Source: a virus (lineage: Duplodnaviria; Heunggongvirae; Uroviricota; Caudoviricetes). From it: DNA of 6,195 bases. Position numbers and translations under genes: made by a program. The notes under the pieces were generated by a model. That model did not search any database. It saw nothing but the letters and a program-made list of their open reading frames with translations, and was not told the origin of the DNA. This document shows, one piece after another, positions 1 to 6,195 of the stretch (the stretch's first letter is position 1; each line of letters opens with the position of its first letter). Where the stretch lies: IMG/VR virus record IMGVR_UViG_2728369186_000004, one strand, 5' to 3'.

Positions 1-93
1 TGTTCTGAGGTGAGCATATCACCTCTGTTCAGGTGGCCAAATTCAGTAAACCACTTCAGAACCTTATTTCATGCAAATGAGATCTACAATTAG
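1..93 (+). CDS. 3' end of an upstream gene (partial, unknown product); frame 1 open from window edge to TAG at 91-93
   Basis: Frame 1 has no stop from position 1 until TAG 91-93 (...CSEVSISPLFRWPNSVNHFRTLFHANEIYN*), overlapping the tail-fibre start by 23 nt. Only 30 codons visible, no motif recognised. Confidence 0.3.
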   Translation, partial: CSEVSISPLFRWPNSVNHFRTLFHANEIYN

Positions 94-1498: not shown

Positions 1499-1540
1499 TA
1501 ATCCCGCTTAATTCTTTAGAGTTAGGCGGGATTATTTTTA
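1499..1540 (+). terminator. Rho-independent terminator after tail fibre gene
   Basis: Inverted repeat taATCCCGCttaa (1499-1511) / ttagGCGGGATta (1522-1534) with one G-U position and a ~10-nt loop, followed by tttta T-run (1535-1540), 19 nt after the tail-fibre stop. Confidence 0.6.
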
Positions 1541-1586
1541 TCTAAATAATTTTGCCATTAAACTATATAAAAATATCGGGGGCGTA

Positions 1587-1865
1587 ATGACTGAAATTAT
1601 ATATGGCGGTATCGGTGTTATCGCCTTAATTTGTGGTGGTCTTTGGAGACTTCACCGAAATCAATTAGCAACTGAAAATAGATTGTCGAAATTGGAATCC
1701 AGCGACGCATTGTTAAACCAGAAGTTTGAGACGATGCAAAGTAACCATGACCAGATCGCCGAGAGAGTTTATCGCATGGAACAAACACTACACGGTATAG
1801 AGAAGAAAGTGGTTGCGATGGACGCCAAATTTGACCAAGTTCTCGACATACTCAAACAAAAATAA
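1587..1865 (+). CDS. Small membrane protein, N-terminal transmembrane helix plus coiled-coil (92 aa); possible holin/lysis-associated or exclusion protein
   Basis: Strong SD cGGGGGcg (1577-1583) 4-9 nt before ATG 1587. Residues 4-20 IIYGGIGVIALICGGLW hydrophobic, followed by RLHRNQ (positive-inside suggests N-out/C-in). Remainder has heptad-like charged/hydrophobic periodicity (coiled coil). No family recognised with confidence. Confidence 0.55.
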   Translation: MTEIIYGGIGVIALICGGLWRLHRNQLATENRLSKLESSDALLNQKFETMQSNHDQIAERVYRMEQTLHGIEKKVVAMDAKFDQVLDILKQK

Positions 1866-1886
1866 TAATAATAAAGGGGTGAATAT

Positions 1887-2057
1887 ATGAAGAATAAACT
1901 TAAGAAATATTTTGGTTATCTCTTGATTATCGCCCTCACTTATAACGTAGCAATTAGACCTCTGCTAACGTCCTTTGGGCTTGAACTCCCGGCTATGACC
2001 GTGGATGAACAATTGCTAAGGACACTGGCGGGGGTCTTTTCGTTATTAGGGGGATAA
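1887..2057 (+). CDS. Small membrane protein (56 aa), not in ORF track; holin-like candidate
   Basis: ATG 1887 preceded by SD aaaGGGG (1873-1879, 7-nt spacer). Translation MKNKLKKYFGYLLIIALTYNVAIRPLLTSFGLELPAMTVDEQLLRTLAGVFSLLGG: Lys-rich N-terminus, one clear hydrophobic helix, no Cys (so not a lipoprotein). TAA 2055-2057 lies 1 nt before the ATG of the next gene (coupled). Confidence 0.45.
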   Translation: MKNKLKKYFGYLLIIALTYNVAIRPLLTSFGLELPAMTVDEQLLRTLAGVFSLLGG

Positions 2058-2058
2058 T

Positions 2059-2742
2059 ATGTCAACCAGTGTCAATAAACGTAACGCTCTAAGGACTAAG
2101 AAAGCGTTGAGGCAATGGTCTGAAAAGGCAACCGATACATTCGAAAGGGCAATAGGGGAAGGGGCGATCTTTGCTTCCAGAGCACTCCAGAAGAAGATTA
2201 ACAAGAATGTTGATAGACCTACTCGATGGACTCAGCAAGCTGTAGGTAATACCAACTACAAGAACCGATCAGGGACGAAACACCAAATCTTCATCAAGGG
2301 CGCAAGGGATAAGGACAAGAAGATCGGCAGTCAGGATGACTATCTGAAACACTATTTCGATGGGGGCAAAATCAATAAGCTAGTTCCAATCGCCAACGGC
2401 AGGGTCTTAGACTCCCACGGGAACATTAAGGCCATTAAAGGCGGTAAGATGATGCGTAACATCGAAAACGGCAACTTCATCAAGGTAGAGAACAAGGAAG
2501 GGACTTTTATCATGAAGAAGTACAAGCCTAAGAAATCCCGAACCAAACGCGCTAGGAATGGATCGGCGGTGGCAAAACGTCGCTTAGAGAAACGCACACA
2601 GAAACAGAGTAAGCGAATCGTTGCCGTTAAGTCGGATAAAATTTCTACTCGTTATTCGACGCTAGGATCGTGGGAAAGCAACGAAGCAATGATGCTTGAA
2701 AACATCAATAAGCACATTAAATCGCGCATGAGATACGTTTAA
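2059..2742 (+). CDS. Lysine/arginine-rich basic protein of unknown function (227 aa); possible nucleic-acid-binding protein
   Basis: ATG 2059 with SD aGGGGGa (2048-2054). No hydrophobic segment. Very high K/R content including KKYKPKKSRTKRARNGSAVAKRRLEKRTQKQSKR. Tightly coupled to the preceding small membrane gene. No family recognised. Confidence 0.55.
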   Translation: MSTSVNKRNALRTKKALRQWSEKATDTFERAIGEGAIFASRALQKKINKNVDRPTRWTQQAVGNTNYKNRSGTKHQIFIKGARDKDKKIGSQDDYLKHYFDGGKINKLVPIANGRVLDSHGNIKAIKGGKMMRNIENGNFIKVENKEGTFIMKKYKPKKSRTKRARNGSAVAKRRLEKRTQKQSKRIVAVKSDKISTRYSTLGSWESNEAMMLENINKHIKSRMRYV

Positions 2743-2751
2743 TCCATAAAT

Positions 2752-2775
2752 ACCCTCATAGAATCTTATGGGGGT
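2752..2775 (+). promoter_or_regulatory. RNA hairpin sequestering the Shine-Dalgarno of the downstream 115-aa gene
   Basis: ACCCTCATA (2752-2760) pairs with TATGGGGGT (2767-2775): 9 bp with one G-U, 6-nt loop. The paired right arm contains the GGGGG SD (2770-2774) of the ATG at 2781. No T-tract follows, so not a typical terminator. Confidence 0.35.
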
Positions 2776-2780
2776 ATAAC

Positions 2781-3128
2781 ATGGCTAAAAATATTTTCAC
2801 TGAATTTCCTACTTATCCGGTCGACCAGCTTTCCGGTATTTTTATCAATGGCATTAGCCCAGAATCCATGACACATGATTTTGAGGCGAAGAGAGTTAAA
2901 CATAAACAATATAAAGAATGTATCCGCGATCATGAAAAAGGGACCGTGTTTTGTGTCGCTACATTGGCTAAACGTCCTAAATATCGTTTTCGTGTAGGGC
3001 AAGAAGTCGATGTAGTTAATCCTTATAGTTTTAACTGTCTGGGTGATGCACGCGCGGTGTGTGTAGGCACAACTAATTACTACATTAAAGGACTCAGATT
3101 TACCGGGTATATAATGGAATACATCTAA
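2781..3128 (+). CDS. Hypothetical protein (115 aa), unknown function
   Basis: ATG 2781 with GGGGG SD 6 nt upstream; ORF ends TAA 3126-3128 and is followed by a strong intrinsic terminator. Protein has 4 Cys and several His but no motif I can assign. Confidence 0.5.
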   Translation: MAKNIFTEFPTYPVDQLSGIFINGISPESMTHDFEAKRVKHKQYKECIRDHEKGTVFCVATLAKRPKYRFRVGQEVDVVNPYSFNCLGDARAVCVGTTNYYIKGLRFTGYIMEYI

Positions 3129-3142
3129 CTCTAATAAATACA

Positions 3143-3169
3143 AGCGACCAATTTCGGTCGCTTTTTTAT
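3143..3169 (+). terminator. Rho-independent terminator between the 115-aa gene and the Zn-ribbon gene
   Basis: AGCGACC (3143-3149) / GGTCGCT (3156-3162), perfect 7-bp GC-rich stem, loop aatttc, followed by TTTTTATT (3163-3169). Confidence 0.7.
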
Positions 3170-3180
3170 TTGGAGGAATC

Positions 3181-4218
3181 ATGGAGATTTTATTTGCTGA
3201 ATATATCAACTACACCGGATTTACAAGAAAAACGCCTCTTGACTATGAACCTATTGCCATTAAACGTTGTGATGAGTTGGGGTACATCTATAACGGTTTT
3301 GTTGTGCCGTGGAAAGGGCAACATACACCCGTTTCTATAACCTGCAAGAAACATAGCACAACGCGAACAATTGCTTTCAAAACTCTTAAAAAACAAGGTG
3401 CGTGTCTTGAATGCTATAAAGAATCATTAAAACTTCCTAAGAAAAAGAATAGAGATAAGGAAGCTGTACTAGATAAAGCAAGCAATGTGCTGGAACGCAA
3501 AGATATGGTTTTAGTTGGATTGTTAGAAGATTATAAAGGATTAGACACAAAAGTTTCTTATAAGTGCAATTGCTGTGATACTGCATACGAAACCATAATC
3601 ACTAGAATCATAAACGATGATGCTGGGTGTCGTCATTGTGGGTCAATTAAGAGAGGAATCAATAAGAGAAAACACACAGACGACGAATGGATGGATCTAA
3701 TTGAGCATGAATGCAGGAACAAACGACTTGAATTAATAGAACAACCTAAATCTCCTATATTGTCAACATCAAAAATACACATCAAATGTGAAAAAGGTCA
3801 TCTTTCTGATTCTTTGGTAGTTTATGGTTTAGTGTATGAAAACTTAGGCTGTCCATGTTGTTCTAAAAATGGTTATAACAGAAGTAAGTCGGGAGTTTTC
3901 TACGTTCAACAGGTCGGAGATTATATAAAATATGGAATAACAAACCATCTAAACCCACAAAAGCGAGTAACTCAACAAGCTAGGGAATCAGGGTTAAAAC
4001 ACAAGTTATTGTGGTATATAACGTTCGGTGACGGAAAAGTTGCCAATGACCTAGAGTATTCCGTAAAACATAACATAGGAAATCACGCTGCACCAAAAGA
4101 ACTAATCCCAGACGGATATACAGAAACATGTGACATAACCAAAGAAGCGCAGATTAGAAAAATGGCAATGGATTTTTGTAAAAACTCCAACAACTATAAA
4201 ATTACATATAGGGGGTAA
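3181..4218 (+). CDS. Protein with three tandem ~74-aa zinc-ribbon repeats and a C-terminal GIY-YIG/T5orf172-like domain (345 aa); candidate homing-endonuclease-like or DNA-binding nuclease-family protein
   Basis: SD GGAGG (3172-3176), ATG 3181. Metal-ligand sets at exactly 74-residue spacing: C55-x2-H58...C75-x2-C78; C129-x-C131C132...C150-x2-C153; C203-x3-H207...C224-x-C226C227, with flanking similarity (WKGQHTPVSITC / YKGLDTKVSYKC). C-terminus has GVFYVQQVGDYIKYGIT (GIY...YIG-like paired motifs), an Arg ~10 residues later (PQKRVTQQ) and downstream Glu (LEYSVKH, GYTETCD). Stop TAA 4216-4218 is 1 nt before the next ATG. Function inferred from motif spacing only. Confidence 0.55.
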   Translation: MEILFAEYINYTGFTRKTPLDYEPIAIKRCDELGYIYNGFVVPWKGQHTPVSITCKKHSTTRTIAFKTLKKQGACLECYKESLKLPKKKNRDKEAVLDKASNVLERKDMVLVGLLEDYKGLDTKVSYKCNCCDTAYETIITRIINDDAGCRHCGSIKRGINKRKHTDDEWMDLIEHECRNKRLELIEQPKSPILSTSKIHIKCEKGHLSDSLVVYGLVYENLGCPCCSKNGYNRSKSGVFYVQQVGDYIKYGITNHLNPQKRVTQQARESGLKHKLLWYITFGDGKVANDLEYSVKHNIGNHAAPKELIPDGYTETCDITKEAQIRKMAMDFCKNSNNYKITYRG

Positions 4219-4219
4219 T

Positions 4220-4573
4220 ATGTTAAGTAAGCATTTTTCTCGCAAGGAATTTAAATGTAAATGCGGAAAATGTGATTATGATACAATCGACGCTGAATTA
4301 CTGGTGATTCTTGAGGATGTACGCGAACACTTTGGGAAACCAGTGATTATTAACAGCGGGAACCGTTGTCCGAATCATAATAAGAATGTTGGCGGTGCAA
4401 CCAATAGCTATCATGTTCGAGGCCGTGCGGCTGACATATCAGTGAAAGGAATTTCTCCTGATATTGTTCATGCTTATCTTGATGGGAAGTATCCTACTCA
4501 ATACGGCTTAGGAAAATATAAAACCTTTACGCATATTGATTCCAGATCAAAAAAATCACGGTGGAATGGATAA
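4220..4573 (+). CDS. Peptidase M15-family (zinc D-Ala-D-Ala carboxypeptidase-like) cell-wall hydrolase; probable endolysin (117 aa)
   Basis: ATG 4220 with GGGGG SD (4211-4215) inside the 3' end of the upstream gene. Motifs FSRKEF...SGNRCPNHNKNVGG...SYH-x6-D (H-VRGRAA-D) and C-terminal FTHID match the metal-binding signature of Peptidase_M15-type phage lysins. No signal peptide or TM segment. Confidence 0.75.
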   Translation: MLSKHFSRKEFKCKCGKCDYDTIDAELLVILEDVREHFGKPVIINSGNRCPNHNKNVGGATNSYHVRGRAADISVKGISPDIVHAYLDGKYPTQYGLGKYKTFTHIDSRSKKSRWNG

Positions 4574-4763
4574 AACAAAAGCGCCTCTGGTGGGCGCTTT
4601 TTTGTTAGAATATGCTGGCGACGTTAGCTATATTTCTGACCATTTTTTCATTATAGACAAATATACCGCAGACGATAAAGTCGTTTTTGACGAAGTAGAT
4701 CCGTCTCTGGTTGAAGTAATGAAAGAACCGGAAGACCTAGAGCTTGATTTAAGCCAATTATAG
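4566..4763 (+). CDS. Questionable small acidic ORF (65 aa from ATG 4566)
   Basis: Track ORF 4536-4763 overlaps the peptidase gene and reads through the terminator hairpin at 4577-4604. The only ATG (4566) has a poorly spaced SD. C-terminus highly acidic (DEVDPSLVEVMKEPEDLELDLSQL). Listed for completeness; probably not a real gene. Confidence 0.2.
   Translation: MDKTKAPLVGAFLLEYAGDVSYISDHFFIIDKYTADDKVVFDEVDPSLVEVMKEPEDLELDLSQL
4577..4604 (+). terminator. Rho-independent terminator after the peptidase gene
   Basis: aaaaGCGCC (4577-4585) / GGCGCtttt (4593-4601), loop tctggtg, then T-run to 4603; begins 4 nt after the TAA at 4571-4573. Confidence 0.55.
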
Positions 4764-4787: not shown

Positions 4788-4809
4788 AAGGGGTACGGAT
4801 GTACCCCTT
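4788..4809 (-). terminator. Rho-independent terminator for the minus-strand recombinase/small-ORF transcript
   Basis: AAGGGGTAC (4788-4796) / GTACCCCTT (4801-4809), 9-bp stem, 4-nt loop. On the minus strand the stem is followed by TTTTTAATTT (complement of 4778-4787); on the plus strand only an A-tract precedes it. Confidence 0.6.
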
Positions 4810-5107: not shown

Positions 5108-6064
5108 TTAAATTCCAAATTCTTGTAATGGACCTGGTATTTCTTCTTCTGGTTTCCAGTTCTTATCTGTCAGCATGTCTAAACATGGATGCAGAACAAG
5201 CCCGTTACTCTCCAGAATCTGCCTATCATTGATAGTCTTCAAATCAACGAAGATCCGGCCTTTCCTCGGTCCTCTTGAATTTTCTATTACAACTCTCTGG
5301 GTCTTGCCATCGATGTATTCCAGTACAAACAAGTTTTTGTACTTGTCAATCCTGCTACACCCGATCCGTTTTAGAGCTTGCTTAATCTTAAACCGGACCT
5401 TAATGCGATCCTCGTTGTAAACATCTTCTAAATCAAATTCTGCGAGCTTCTCCCAGCCTTGAGAGTCAACAGAATACATTTCCTCTTCTGCCATCTTAAT
5501 TTGATTGTAGAGTGTTTCACGCTCGCTATTGAGGGTAGTAATCTGATCGGCTAGCTCCTTCGTTGCTCCTGTCATAGCAGAAAGGGTAATCAGGTTATCA
5601 ATCTTGCGTGATATTTCATCAATCTGTACTTTCAAAGCCGGAACCGGATTAGCCTTATCTTCAGCAATCCAGATTTTATCAGCCAGCAATTGCAATACAG
5701 CTTTCTCTAATTGGTCGCCGCGAAAACTCCAGTTTGTATGCACACATTCAATACGACTAGAGCGCATTGCATCGCATGAATAACGATATTGGTTAGGCCG
5801 TCTGTTTGTTCCTTTCACCTTAACCATAGCGGAACCGCAATGTTCACATTTCAATAGACCAACACCACTAAGCAAGGGAATAGGTTTAACTTCTTCTTTG
5901 TCTCCAAAGTTACATGCTCTAACACCAATGCTTTTCTTAAGGTGATAAAACTCAGCGTCATCTAGCACACGAGGATAATAATCCTTTAACTCATACTTAA
6001 CGCCATCTACAGAGATTTCCTTGATACCAATCAAAGCGCGGGTATGGAACAACCTTTCAATCAT
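5108..6064 (-). CDS. Large serine recombinase, C-terminal portion only (end of recombinase domain, zinc ribbon, coiled-coil); N-terminal catalytic domain not encoded in frame, so possibly truncated or a pseudogene
   Basis: Zinc-ribbon motif LLSGVGLLKCEHCGSAMVKVKG...YRYSCDAMRSSRIECVHTNWSFRGDQLEKAVLQLL (C73, C76, C97, C107), followed by a long predicted coiled-coil, typical of large serine recombinases. No resolvase-type catalytic domain precedes it. The frame stays open upstream of ATG 6064 to an in-frame TAG at 6167-6169, and that stretch (LNATYTPPPAASHKRHSNWSRA-MIERLFHTRALIG) still resembles the recombinase domain (W-x4-[VI]-x-R-[IL]...Y/L-x-G). Confidence 0.7.
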   Translation of the reverse strand: MIERLFHTRALIGIKEISVDGVKYELKDYYPRVLDDAEFYHLKKSIGVRACNFGDKEEVKPIPLLSGVGLLKCEHCGSAMVKVKGTNRRPNQYRYSCDAMRSSRIECVHTNWSFRGDQLEKAVLQLLADKIWIAEDKANPVPALKVQIDEISRKIDNLITLSAMTGATKELADQITTLNSERETLYNQIKMAEEEMYSVDSQGWEKLAEFDLEDVYNEDRIKVRFKIKQALKRIGCSRIDKYKNLFVLEYIDGKTQRVVIENSRGPRKGRIFVDLKTINDRQILESNGLVLHPCLDMLTDKNWKPEEEIPGPLQEFGI

Positions 6065-6195
6065 TGCCCGTGACCAGTTTGAATGCCTCTTGTGACTTGC
6101 GGCTGGTGGTGGTGTGTATGTCGCGTTAAGGTGATCTGATCCTACCCACGTAATATGGACACAGGCCTAAGCGAGGTTCTTGTTTTCAAATTGTT

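What the first reader, a model, noticed from the sequence alone, without database searches (positions are those of the whole stretch)
2743..2780. Hairpin that base-pairs the entire Shine-Dalgarno of the 115-aa gene
A 9-bp stem (2752-2760 with 2767-2775) includes the GGGGG SD at 2770-2774, with the ATG at 2781. No T-tract follows, so this looks like translational control (RBS occlusion, RNA thermometer-like, or coupling that needs ribosomes finishing the upstream gene at 2742 to open it) rather than termination.
Basis: seen in the sequence. Interest (0 to 1): 0.4.

Follow-up and report, generated by a model that had tools for sequence, protein, structure and literature searches.

The report
Phage T4-style ribosome-site-hiding hairpin
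A conserved RNA hairpin in a decayed E. coli-type prophage hides the ribosome-binding site of a small gene next to the lysis enzyme gene, and it is built like the classic phage T4 lysozyme switch, with a T4-late-promoter-like box in its left arm, so probably only transcripts that start inside the hairpin get translated.

Summary
RNAfold gives a 12-bp stem (2750-2761 with 2766-2777, loop AAUC) that buries the GGGGG Shine-Dalgarno. A 4-bp outer helix (2744-2747 with 2781-2784) covers the AUG. The energy is -17.8 kcal/mol, z = -4.8.

The 31-nt non-coding cassette is 94% conserved across 17 distinct E. coli and Salmonella prophage relatives. The adjacent coding DNA is 81% and 48% conserved. Orthologs show no two-sided compensatory changes, only wobble changes.

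TAAATA is the most enriched hexamer upstream of genes in an intact related prophage: 14 of 40 genes in sense, 1 in antisense, and 0 of 37 host genes. The four strongest SD-occluding hairpins there all carry it in the left arm or loop. The layout aligns with the T4 lysozyme (gene e) leader.

Best reading: read-through transcripts are translationally silent, and transcripts starting near A2758 lack the anti-SD and are translated. No gp55 homolog was found, so the promoter step is inferred. This is a new member of a known kind, of moderate interest.

The parts
2740..2742 (+). Stop codon (TAA) of the upstream 227-aa ORF (2059-2742). It lies 7 nt before the main stem.
   Evidence: The distance from the stop to the stem is 6-12 nt in all E. 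coli and Salmonella relatives.
2745..2752 (+). CATAAATA, a T4-late-promoter-like box (7 of 8 matches to TATAAATA). The core TAAATA is at 2747-2752. It overlaps the first 3 nt of the left arm and lies immediately 5' of the anti-SD.
   Evidence: - TAAATA is invariant in 17 distinct orthologs.
- In the related prophage L048 it is the top-ranked hexamer in -60..-15 windows: 14 of 40 genes in sense against 1 in antisense.
- 21 of 22 intergenic copies point at the next gene.
- 0 of 37 neighbouring host genes have it.
- No sigma-70-type promoter was found at this site.
2744..2747 (+). 5' strand of the outer 4-bp helix (CCAU), which pairs with AUGG at 2781-2784. This is the weaker, less conserved part.
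   Evidence: 83.8% of cells are paired, and C2745 is A in 8 of 17 relatives.
2750..2761 (+). Left arm AUACCCUCAUAG. The anti-SD CCCUC is at 2753-2757.
   Evidence: The arm is nearly invariant across relatives.
2758..2758 (+). Predicted start (+1, A) of a transcript made from the CATAAATA box, if the T4 spacing applies (box at -13..-6). Such an RNA would lack the anti-SD.
   Evidence: This is an inference. The T4 box position comes from PMC2988020. An RNA starting at 2758 folds at only -2.7 to -5 kcal/mol, against -17.8 to -19.2 for the long form.
2762..2765 (+). Loop AAUC. Both its sequence and its length vary in relatives.
   Evidence: In relatives, the interval between the 11-nt arms is 5, 6 or 7 nt, and its bases change.
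2766..2777 (+). Right arm UUAUGGGGGUAU, which contains the Shine-Dalgarno GGGGG (2770-2774).
   Evidence: G2771 is A in 6 of 17 relatives, changing U.G to U-A.
2781..3128 (+). The regulated gene: a 115-aa protein of unknown function. It has no Pfam or PHROG hit and belongs to a narrow family (E. coli, Salmonella, Providencia).
   Evidence: - Family and annotation.
- In most relatives, its stop lies 10 nt before, or overlaps, the start of the M15 endolysin gene.
- The AlphaFold model is poor (pLDDT 55).
1499..1548 (+). Terminator hairpin (1499-1534) after the tail-tip gene, followed by TAAATA (1543-1548), 39-44 nt before the 92-aa gene. This is the likely source of read-through transcripts that reach the hairpin.
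   Evidence: No convincing + strand terminator lies between 1626 and 2743.
3135..3163 (+). A sister arrangement: TAAATA (3135-3140) directly followed by the terminator hairpin 3142-3163 and a T-run, upstream of the inserted 345-aa endonuclease gene.
   Evidence: The same element occurs in Salmonella locus L038 without the endonuclease.
4220..4573 (+). Peptidase_M15_3 endolysin. In most relatives, this is the gene immediately after the 115-aa gene.
   Evidence: plus the gene order.

Best explanation
The hairpin is the RNA half of a T4 gene-e-type device.

**On long transcripts.** These enter from upstream, either from the TAAATA site at 1543 through the 92-, 56- and 227-aa genes or from any read-through in the lysogen. 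On them, AUACCCUCAUAG (2750-2761) pairs with UUAUGGGGGUAU (2766-2777). The SD and, less firmly, the AUG are buried. The 115-aa gene is therefore poorly translated. So is the endolysin gene that directly follows it in intact relatives.

**On short transcripts.** The DNA that encodes the left arm also carries a T4-late-promoter-like box, CATAAATA (2745-2752). With T4 spacing, transcripts made from it would begin near A2758. They would lack the anti-SD CCCUC and could not form the hairpin. They would then be translated.

**Shown versus inferred.**
- Shown here: the structure and its stability; conservation above that of the flanking genes; recurrence of the same design at three other genes of the phage; the oriented, gene-proximal enrichment of TAAATA.
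- Inferred: that TAAATA is a promoter, the position of the start site, and which polymerase factor reads it. No gp55 homolog was found.
For: 1. **Stable hairpin over the SD and AUG.** -17.8 kcal/mol, z = -4.8. The SD unpaired probability is 0.00-0.04.

2. **The cassette is more conserved than the flanking coding DNA.** Among 17 distinct loci, mean pairwise identity is 93.7% for the cassette. It is 81.4% for the first 120 nt of the gene and 47.7% for the end of the upstream gene. In two E. coli prophages, similarity to the window begins at about 2734, just before the cassette.

3. **The changes seen fit an RNA helix on this strand.** They are U.G to U-A (6 of 17), C-G to U.G, and G.U to G-C. 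Loop length varies over 5, 6 and 7 nt and loop sequence varies.

4. **TAAATA behaves like an oriented, gene-proximal signal in the intact relative L048.**
- 22 of its 33 copies lie in the 13% of the prophage that is intergenic.
- 21 of those 22 point at the next gene, mostly 26-44 nt before the ATG and often just after terminators.
- It is the top hexamer of all 4096 in upstream windows, 14 in sense against 1 in antisense.
- It is absent from 37 neighbouring host genes.
- There is no conserved -35 element.
- The same positioning is seen in Salmonella and Providencia relatives.

5. **The four strongest SD-occluding hairpins among 39 L048 genes all carry TAAATA in the left arm or loop.** They precede the 115-aa gene, the terminase gene, a 74-aa HTH gene and a 186-aa tail gene. 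A start 6 nt downstream would drop the anti-SD in each case, and the predicted +1 is a purine in all four. Leaders truncated at that point fold at -2.7 to -4.4 kcal/mol, against -10.5 to -21.6 for the full leaders.

6. **The terminase copy is a sequence paralog.** It reads AATAAATACCTTCAT-N8-ATGAGGGTAATTACATG and is conserved even where the TerL N-terminus is only 52% identical. The 74-aa-gene hairpin has two variants with one two-sided compensatory change.

7. **The T4 gene e leader has the same order of elements.** UUUUAUAAAUACCUUCUAUAAAUACUUAGGAGGUAUUAUG folds at -14.9 kcal/mol and aligns box-for-box with the cassette. Published work shows the T4 hairpin blocks early translation about 100-fold and that late transcripts start inside it (PMC3014915). 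The same holds for I-TevI, segB and mobE (PMC2988022).

8. **An IMG/VR scan shows selection for the helix in this architecture.** Among 91 distinct strings from outside this prophage family that match TAAATACNNNCAT-N6-10-ATGNNNGTA, the free central triplets are fully complementary in 23. Shuffling gives 6.1 (p <= 2e-4), and many pair types occur. Some of the contigs encode gp55.
Against: - **No gp55 homolog.** PHROGs and Pfam on candidate ORFs, phmmer, and a gp55 profile HMM plus hhalign all found nothing. Gp33 and gp45 were not searched for, and nothing in the annotation of the 37-kb prophage suggests them. The factor that would read TAAATA is therefore unknown.
- **No transcript 5' ends are available.** Both promoter activity and the +1 position are inferred.
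- **The margin is tight.** The anti-SD lies in the 5 nt between the box and the predicted +1. A start 3-4 nt further upstream would retain part of it.
- **The temporal logic is unclear.** The upstream genes appear to be driven by the same motif (1543), so this is not the early-versus-late contrast seen in T4.
- **No two-sided compensatory change among orthologs**.
- **The complementary strand folds almost as well** (-16.3 kcal/mol), so energy alone does not choose the strand.
- **The Providencia relative has no hairpin**.
- **The window's own copy sits in a decayed, IS-flanked prophage remnant** and may no longer be in use.
Confidence: 0.55

Rival explanations
1. The hairpin works by translational coupling only. 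It keeps the 115-aa gene closed unless a ribosome finishing the 227-aa ORF at 2740-2742 melts the outer helix and the 5' part of the left arm. Expression of the two genes is thereby tied together. TAAATA has no role.
For: - The stop codon is 7 nt before the stem here, and 6-12 nt before it in every E. coli and Salmonella relative.
- Two of the three sister hairpins also begin within a few nt of an upstream stop codon.
Against: - The paralogous terminase cassette lies in a divergent intergenic region, with no ORF of 40 aa or more ending upstream of it.
- T4 gene e has the same geometry, with the nudE stop 1-2 nt before the hairpin, yet is strongly repressed on long transcripts (PMC3014915).
- Coupling does not explain the invariance of TAAATA or its oriented enrichment across the genome.
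Confidence: 0.15
2. The inverted repeat acts in DNA, not RNA. It is a dyad-symmetric operator (TACCYTCAT-N-ATGRGGGTA) bound by a dimeric phage regulator that controls the 115-aa/endolysin genes and the terminase gene.
For: - Both arms are conserved in sequence while the centre differs completely between the two paralogs.
- There are no two-sided compensatory changes among orthologs.
- The complementary strand folds nearly as well.
- The phage encodes several small HTH proteins of unknown role.
Against: - The interval between the 11-nt arms varies (5, 6 or 7 nt) among orthologs. A hairpin loop tolerates that, but a dimer site usually does not.
- In the four reference hairpins, every non-Watson-Crick position is G.U on the sense strand, which would be A.C on the other strand.
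- The right arm is the SD at canonical spacing from the ATG.
- The other two SD-occluding hairpins have unrelated arm sequences.
Confidence: 0.07
3. The hairpin is an RNA processing, stability or attenuation element. It could be an RNase III site, a 3' stabiliser for the upstream message, or a weak terminator. Occlusion of the SD would then be incidental.
For: - It is a strong stem directly after a stop codon.
- The phage is rich in intergenic stem-loops.
- One sister hairpin, before the 186-aa tail gene, is followed by CUUUUCU and could terminate.
Against: - No U-tract follows the stem, and the terminator scan does not call the site.
- The stem ends 3 nt before the AUG and contains the only SD, so any processing or termination here would also decide translation.
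- The terminase copy has no upstream message to stabilise.
Confidence: 0.08
4. The hairpin is mainly a conserved mobile regulatory cassette at a mosaic junction. It would be kept because recombination between copies shuffles modules, and in this IS-flanked remnant it would be a relic with no current role. This can coexist with the best explanation.
For: - Homology breakpoints fall at the cassette.
- The cassette is far more conserved than its flanks.
- The window's prophage is truncated at both ends by IS sequences.
- PeSL cassettes in T4-type phages behave this way (PMC2839356, PMC4122927).
Against: Recombination alone does not explain why the right arm is always the SD at the right distance from the ATG. 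It also does not explain why the unconstrained stem positions covary in the wider class.
Confidence: 0.1

Closest known systems
Phage T4 gene e (lysozyme) translation-initiation-region hairpin with embedded late promoters (reviewed in PMC3014915)
   Same: - The order of parts is the same: late-promoter box, then anti-SD (CCUUC in T4, CCCUC here), then a loop, then the SD, then AUG.
- An upstream ORF stops just before the stem.
- The stabilities are similar: -14.9 kcal/mol for T4 and -17.8 here.
- The setting is a lysis module.
- The 12-mer ATAAATACCTTC is shared by T4 e and the prophage's terminase copy.
   Different: - The host element is a temperate prophage with a serine recombinase and a lambda-J-like tail tip, not a T4-like phage.
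- No gp55 homolog is detectable.
- There is a single box (CATAAATA, 7 of 8 matches), where T4 has two perfect boxes.
- The gene controlled is a 115-aa unknown protein lying before an M15 peptidase endolysin, not the lysozyme gene itself.
- There are no transcript or translation data.
T4-family homing-endonuclease hairpins (I-TevI, I-TevII/III, segB, Aeh1 mobE; PMC2988022)
   Same: - An RBS-sequestering hairpin contains a late promoter, so only late transcripts are translated.
- The window also holds a free-standing endonuclease-like gene (3181-4218) preceded by TAAATA plus a hairpin.
- An IMG/VR contig (L112) has nearly the same arms (TACCCTCATAG ... TATGAGGGTAT) before a GIY-YIG seg-like gene.
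   Different: - The finding's hairpin precedes a non-nuclease gene.
- The hairpin before the window's endonuclease gene (3142-3163) is a terminator-type stem that does not cover that gene's SD.
PeSL promoter-stem-loop cassettes of RB49/phi1-type phages (PMC2839356, PMC4122927)
   Same: - Both are repeated intergenic promoter-plus-stem-loop cassettes.
- Both sit at module junctions and are more conserved than their flanks.
   Different: - PeSLs carry early, sigma-70-type promoters, and their stem-loops act as terminators.
- Here the box is late-type and the stem holds the SD.
Translational coupling through RBS hairpins (e.g. RNA phage MS2 coat-replicase; from general knowledge)
   Same: The SD is buried in a helix that an upstream translating ribosome could open, and the stop codon is only 7 nt from the stem.
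   Different: The paralogous cassette has no upstream ORF. The same geometry in T4 e represses translation; it does not couple the two genes.
RNA thermometers (ROSE, fourU; from general knowledge)
   Same: The SD is sequestered in a hairpin in the 5' leader.
   Different: Thermometers use short or mismatch-rich stems that melt at 37-42 C. This stem is 12 continuous pairs at -17.8 kcal/mol, and Rfam gives no hit.

Membership tests
T4 gene-e-type 'late promoter inside an RBS hairpin' control | A stable hairpin sequesters the SD and/or the AUG of the regulated gene. | tested here: met
   12 + 4 bp, -17.8 kcal/mol, z = -4.8. The SD unpaired probability is <= 0.04.
T4 gene-e-type 'late promoter inside an RBS hairpin' control | A T4-late-type box (TATAAATA) lies in the DNA of the 5' arm or loop, so that the anti-SD is left out of the transcript. 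| tested here: met
   - CATAAATA at 2745-2752 matches 7 of 8 positions.
- The anti-SD occupies the 5 nt between the box and the predicted +1.
- The motif is oriented and enriched upstream of genes.
- The margin is narrow: it depends on the T4 spacing of 6 nt.
T4 gene-e-type 'late promoter inside an RBS hairpin' control | Primary transcripts start inside the hairpin, and longer transcripts run through it. | not testable with these tools
   No RNA data are available. The only indirect point is that no + strand terminator was called between 1626 and 2743.
T4 gene-e-type 'late promoter inside an RBS hairpin' control | The phage encodes the late-promoter recognition machinery (gp55, with gp33 and gp45). 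| tested here: not met
   - There is no gp55-like ORF in two complete related prophages.
- PHROGs and Pfam gave nothing.
- phmmer gave a best E-value of 4.5.
- A gp55 profile HMM gave a best E-value of 0.72, and hhalign gave probabilities <= 0.3%.
- Gp33 and gp45 were not searched for directly.
T4 gene-e-type 'late promoter inside an RBS hairpin' control | Stem pairing is maintained in relatives. | tested here: met
   - 96.6% of cells are paired in 17 distinct orthologs, with only wobble-type changes and no two-sided changes.
- Covariation appears only in a sister hairpin and in the wider IMG/VR class.
RNA thermometer | A marginally stable, mismatch-containing stem over the SD that melts near 37-42 C, or membership of a curated family. 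| tested here: not met
   The stem is 12 continuous pairs at -17.8 kcal/mol. No Rfam family matches at E <= 1.
Intrinsic (Rho-independent) terminator | A G+C-rich stem followed by a U-tract. | tested here: not met
   The stem is followed by AACAUGG, and the terminator scan does not list the site.
Translational coupling hairpin | An upstream ORF ends within ribosome reach of the stem wherever the element occurs. | tested here: inconclusive
   This holds for the finding (7 nt) and for all its orthologs (6-12 nt). It does not hold for the paralogous terminase copy.
PeSL mobile regulatory cassettes | A repeated intergenic cassette made of an early sigma-70 promoter plus a terminator stem-loop, located at mosaic junctions. 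| tested here: not met
   The cassette is repeated and lies at junctions. It has no sigma-70-type promoter, and its stem is not a terminator.

The most novel reading that the evidence does not exclude
A family of temperate E. coli, Salmonella and Providencia prophages (serine recombinase; inserted in hicB or ycdX) appears to run many of its genes from T4-late-type TAAATA boxes while encoding no detectable gp55. These genes include packaging, tail, lysis-region and endonuclease genes.

If the boxes are real promoters, one of two things follows:
- The phage carries an unrecognised late-promoter recognition factor.
- Its late genes are read by the gp55 of a superinfecting T4-type phage. Its endonuclease genes are most similar to those of RB49/phi1-type phages.

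In either case the e-like hairpins would keep terminase and lysis-region genes untranslated on stray read-through transcripts in the lysogen.
Probability: 0.2. Interest if true: 0.7.

Novelty: new member of a known kind. Interest (0 to 1): 0.45.

Why it matters
If correct, the T4 lysozyme-type switch is not confined to T4-like lytic phages. In that switch, the same DNA encodes a promoter and the inhibitory arm of an RBS hairpin. Here it would be used repeatedly by a temperate prophage lineage common in E. coli and Salmonella, at packaging, tail and lysis-region genes.

This has two practical consequences:
- It gives a concrete, testable handle on how such prophages keep dangerous late genes silent on read-through transcripts.
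- It raises the question of what reads a T4-late-type box in a genome without gp55.

For annotation, TAAATA about 25-45 nt before start codons is a usable promoter-like signal for this phage group.

Tried and rejected
- **Rfam.** An E-value scan of the whole window found nothing at the site. The only hit was a sub-threshold PK-repZ match at 4447-4578.
- **Sigma-70 promoter.** The scan found none near 2700-2780.
- **Function of the 115-aa protein.** Pfam and PHROGs were empty. The AlphaFold2 model built on a 16-sequence alignment was too poor (pLDDT 54.7) to justify a fold search.
- **Close cultured phage relative.** None exists in the 'phages' collection by DNA search. The best terminase match is 44.5% identical, to Escherichia phage DCP80.
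- **gp55 search.** PHROGs and Pfam, a PDB sequence search on two candidate ORFs, phmmer and a gp55 HMM plus hhalign were all negative.
- **Genome-contig scan with the 115-aa family.** It returned a single partial locus.
- **Ortholog covariation test.** It found no two-sided changes.
- **Strand choice from folding energy.** The difference is not decisive: -17.8 against -16.3 kcal/mol.
- **Interpretations rejected.** RNA thermometer, terminator and chance palindrome. Reasons are given in the report.
Full report
**Observation**

The window reads TAA-TCCATAAATACCCTCATAGAATCTTATGGGGGTATAAC-ATGG at 2740-2784. RNAfold gives a longer structure:
- A 12-bp stem, 2750-2761 with 2766-2777, with loop AAUC.
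- An outer 4-bp helix, CCAU (2744-2747) with AUGG (2781-2784).

The MFE is -17.8 kcal/mol, against -7.3 +/- 2.2 for dinucleotide shuffles (z = -4.79, 0 of 200 shuffles as good). The hairpin persists in a 141-nt context. GGGGG (2770-2774) is the only SD and lies 6 nt before the ATG at 2781. The upstream ORF stops at 2740-2742. No T-run follows the stem, and the terminator scan does not list the site. Rfam has nothing there.

**Context**

The window is the right end of a prophage. Its parts, in order:

| Coordinates | Strand | Feature |
|---|---|---|
| 71-1480 | + | C-terminal part of a lambda-J-like tail-tip protein |
| 1587-1865 | + | 92-aa protein with a transmembrane segment and a coiled coil |
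| 1887-2057 | + | 56-aa membrane protein |
| 2059-2742 | + | 227-aa ORF |
| 2781-3128 | + | 115-aa ORF |
| 3181-4218 | + | 345-aa CapR/GIY-YIG-type endonuclease-like ORF |
| 4220-4573 | + | Peptidase_M15_3 endolysin |
| 5108-6064 | - | Fragment of a serine recombinase |

Both ends of the window (1 to about 60 and 6137-6195) match IS3-family elements found in thousands of enterobacterial records. The tail-tip and recombinase genes are truncated, so this copy is a decayed remnant.

Intact relatives occur in 55 of 5,426 complete E. coli genomes, inserted in hicB or ycdX. They also occur in Salmonella and Providencia. In most relatives the endolysin gene follows the 115-aa gene after about 10 nt or overlaps it. 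The 345-aa endonuclease gene is an insertion found in a minority.

**Conservation of the hairpin**

I compared 17 distinct upstream sequences, in which the 115-aa protein falls to 63% identity. The main findings are as follows:
- The left arm and TAAATA are essentially invariant.
- The 12-bp helix is paired in 96.6% of cells.
- The changes are U.G to U-A (6 of 17), C-G to U.G (1), G.U to G-C (1), a few mismatches at single loci, and losses of the outermost pair.
- No pair shows a change on both sides.
- The outer 4-bp helix is weaker: 83.8% of cells are paired, and C2745 is A in 8 of 17.
- Loop sequence and length vary.

The 31-nt non-coding cassette is 93.7% identical on average. The first 120 nt of the gene is 81.4% identical, and 120 nt of the upstream gene is 47.7% identical. 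In two E. coli prophages, similarity to the window starts at about 2734, just before the cassette. The Providencia relative lacks the hairpin. It has a 14-nt gap with a free GAGGA, and it keeps a TAAATA 40 nt before the ATG.

In short, the stem is under purifying selection. Orthologs alone cannot show whether the selection acts on structure or on sequence.

CATAAATA (2745-2752) lies directly 5' of the anti-SD CCCUC (2753-2757). In the intact relative L048, the hexamer TAAATA behaves like an oriented gene-start signal:
- It occurs 33 times, and 22 of those are in the 13% of the prophage that is intergenic.
- 21 of the 22 intergenic copies point at the next gene, usually 26-44 nt before the ATG and often right after a terminator.
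- It is the top-ranked of all hexamers in -60..-15 windows: 14 of 40 genes in sense, 1 in antisense.
- None of 37 neighbouring host genes has it.
- No -35-like element accompanies it.
- The same placement is seen in Salmonella and Providencia loci.

In the window, all four TAAATA copies are on the + strand. Three are intergenic and lie before genes, at 1543, 2747 and 3135.

The consensus, (T/A/C)(A/C)TAAATA with no -35, resembles the T4 late promoter TATAAATA. In T4, that box occupies -13 to -6, and A at -13 is its commonest variant (PMC2988020).

**A family of such hairpins**

I folded -50..+12 of all 39 L048 genes. The four leaders that combine a strong stem with the best-buried SD are these:

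| Gene | Leader MFE (kcal/mol) |
|---|---|
| 186-aa tail gene | -21.1 |
| 74-aa HTH gene | -18.6 |
| 115-aa gene | -17.8 |
| Terminase large subunit | -10.5 |

All four carry TAAATA in the left arm or the loop. In each case the anti-SD lies upstream of, or within 5 nt after, the box. With T4 spacing, the predicted +1 is a purine in all four. The truncated leaders fold at only -2.7 to -4.4 kcal/mol. For the window, an RNA starting at A2758 folds at about -2.7 to -5 kcal/mol, with z = +0.4.

The terminase copy, AATAAATACCTTCAT-ATTTCGTA-ATGAGGGTAATTACATG, is a sequence paralog of the finding with a different loop. Three further points about it:
- It lies in a divergent intergenic region with no upstream ORF.
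- It is conserved in 32 of 34 IMG/VR loci, even where the TerL N-terminus is 52% identical.
- One variant changes two left-arm bases and keeps both pairs.

The 74-aa-gene hairpin exists in two versions that both fold (-17.4 and -19.3 kcal/mol). They differ by one two-sided compensatory change, U-A to A-U.

**Comparison with T4**

I fetched the T4 gene e leader. UUUUAUAAAUACCUUCUAUAAAUACUUAGGAGGUAUUAUG folds at -14.9 kcal/mol and aligns with the cassettes element for element: box, anti-SD (CCUUC or CCCUC), loop, SD, AUG. The upstream nudE stop codon lies just before the stem.

The literature states that long early transcripts form this structure and that lysozyme synthesis from them is reduced about 100-fold. 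It also states that transcripts from the late promoters in the 5' strand of the structure lack it and are translated. The genes soc, 49 and I-TevI are regulated in the same way (PMC3014915), as are I-TevII/III, segB and mobE (PMC2988022).

A scan of IMG/VR for the skeleton TAAATACNNNCAT-N6-10-ATGNNNGTA found at least 120 stretches. Among 91 distinct strings outside this prophage family:
- The three unconstrained central positions are fully complementary in 23, against 6.1 expected (p <= 2e-4).
- For strings with an ATG within 14 nt, the figure is 15 of 41, against 3.9 expected.
- CG, TA, GC, TG and AT pairs occur at each position.

Some of these contigs encode gp55. One has nearly the same arms as the finding, in front of a GIY-YIG seg-like gene. 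This is class-level covariation for the architecture. It does not prove the case for this locus, and the sequences are not independent of one another.

**Best explanation (confidence about 0.55)**

The finding is a T4 gene-e-type device. Long transcripts are translationally silent for the 115-aa gene and, in intact phages, for the closely following endolysin gene. Transcripts begun from the CATAAATA box near A2758 lack the anti-SD and are translated.
- Shown: the structure, its selection, its recurrence, and the behaviour of the motif.
- Inferred: promoter activity, the start site, and the polymerase factor.

**Main weakness**

No gp55 homolog is detectable in two complete related prophages. 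The element therefore fails that membership feature of the T4 system, even though it looks built to work like it. [quoted passage not shown]

The upstream genes appear to use the same motif, so the early-versus-late logic of T4 is not evident here. A plausible purpose is to silence stray read-through in lysogens or to set expression ratios, but that is speculation.

**Rivals**

- **Coupling only (0.15).** It fits the 6-12 nt distance from stop to stem. It does not fit the terminase paralog or the T4 precedent.
- **DNA operator (0.07).** It fits the conserved arms. It does not fit the variable interval between the arms, the sense-strand G.U positions, or the SD identity of the right arm.
- **Processing, stability or termination element (0.08).** There is no U-tract, and the terminase copy has no upstream message.
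- **Mosaic-junction cassette or relic (0.10).** This is compatible with the best explanation and resembles PeSLs (PMC2839356, PMC4122927).
- **Thermometer.** Rejected on stability.

**Verdict**

The closest known system is the T4 lysozyme leader. This is a new member of that kind, in an unexpected host element. It is of moderate interest (0.45). An open question follows: what reads TAAATA in this prophage?

Noticed in passing
window 3135-3163 (and L038 4358-4395): TAAATA is immediately followed by a strong terminator hairpin (AAGCGACC-AATT-TCGGTCGCTT plus a T-run), upstream of the 345-aa endonuclease-like gene. With T4 spacing, a transcript from this box would start inside the left arm and so escape the terminator. 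The same element occurs in a Salmonella relative that lacks the endonuclease gene.
   Followed up: partly
window 3181-4218: A 345-aa CapR / T5orf172 / GIY-YIG-like (phrog_681) endonuclease gene is inserted between the 115-aa gene and the endolysin gene, unlike in most relatives. Related prophages carry up to three or four paralogs. The nearest cultured homologs (28-30% identity) are in RB49/phi1-type T4-like phages.
   Followed up: partly
window 1-60 and 6137-6195: Both window ends match IS3-family insertion sequences (IS911-, IS3- or IS2-like), which occur at more than 20,000 places in E. coli genomes. The tail-tip gene (469 of about 1,218 aa) and the serine recombinase gene (318 of about 557 aa) are truncated, so this prophage copy is a remnant.
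   Followed up: partly
L048 (NZ_CP069522.1 2920000-2969000), whole prophage about 80-37480: The related intact prophage has TAAATA 26-44 nt upstream of about a third of its genes. It carries T4-type recombination genes (UvsW-like helicase, UvsY). It has no recognisable repressor, replication or gp55-like genes, and it has a 1.3-kb unannotated stretch (32995-34271) dense in TATAAATA boxes on both strands.
   Followed up: partly
L048 30140-30742, 30778-31002, 34271-34450: Three small paralogous proteins share a C-terminal HTH-like motif (e.g. SRGTYYSRLKKYGIK, ISIAQFYKSLHKVDLKF, IDRSGFYKLMKKYEIQV). None has a family hit. They are candidates for the unknown transcription factor(s) of this phage.
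   Followed up: no
window 1587-2057: The 92-aa protein (N-terminal transmembrane segment plus coiled coil) and the 56-aa hydrophobic protein lie between the tail-tip gene and the 227-aa gene. They look like holin- or spanin-type lysis proteins, which would make 1587-4573 a lysis region. No family hit confirms this.
   Followed up: no
window 4571-4607 and 4788-4809: Two symmetrical, terminator-like hairpins lie between the converging endolysin-side genes and recombinase-side genes. The first is flanked by A/T runs on both sides. The scan calls terminators there on the - strand only. A 75-aa ORF (4536-4763) overlaps the end of the endolysin gene.
   Followed up: no
L066/L067 (IMG/VR), upstream of terminase: In one sub-lineage the terminase cassette is replaced by CTAAATA plus a short hairpin (CAACATATTGTTG) that does not cover the SD (GAGGA), and the gene starts with GTG. 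This is a natural variant in which the box is kept and the occlusion is lost.
   Followed up: no
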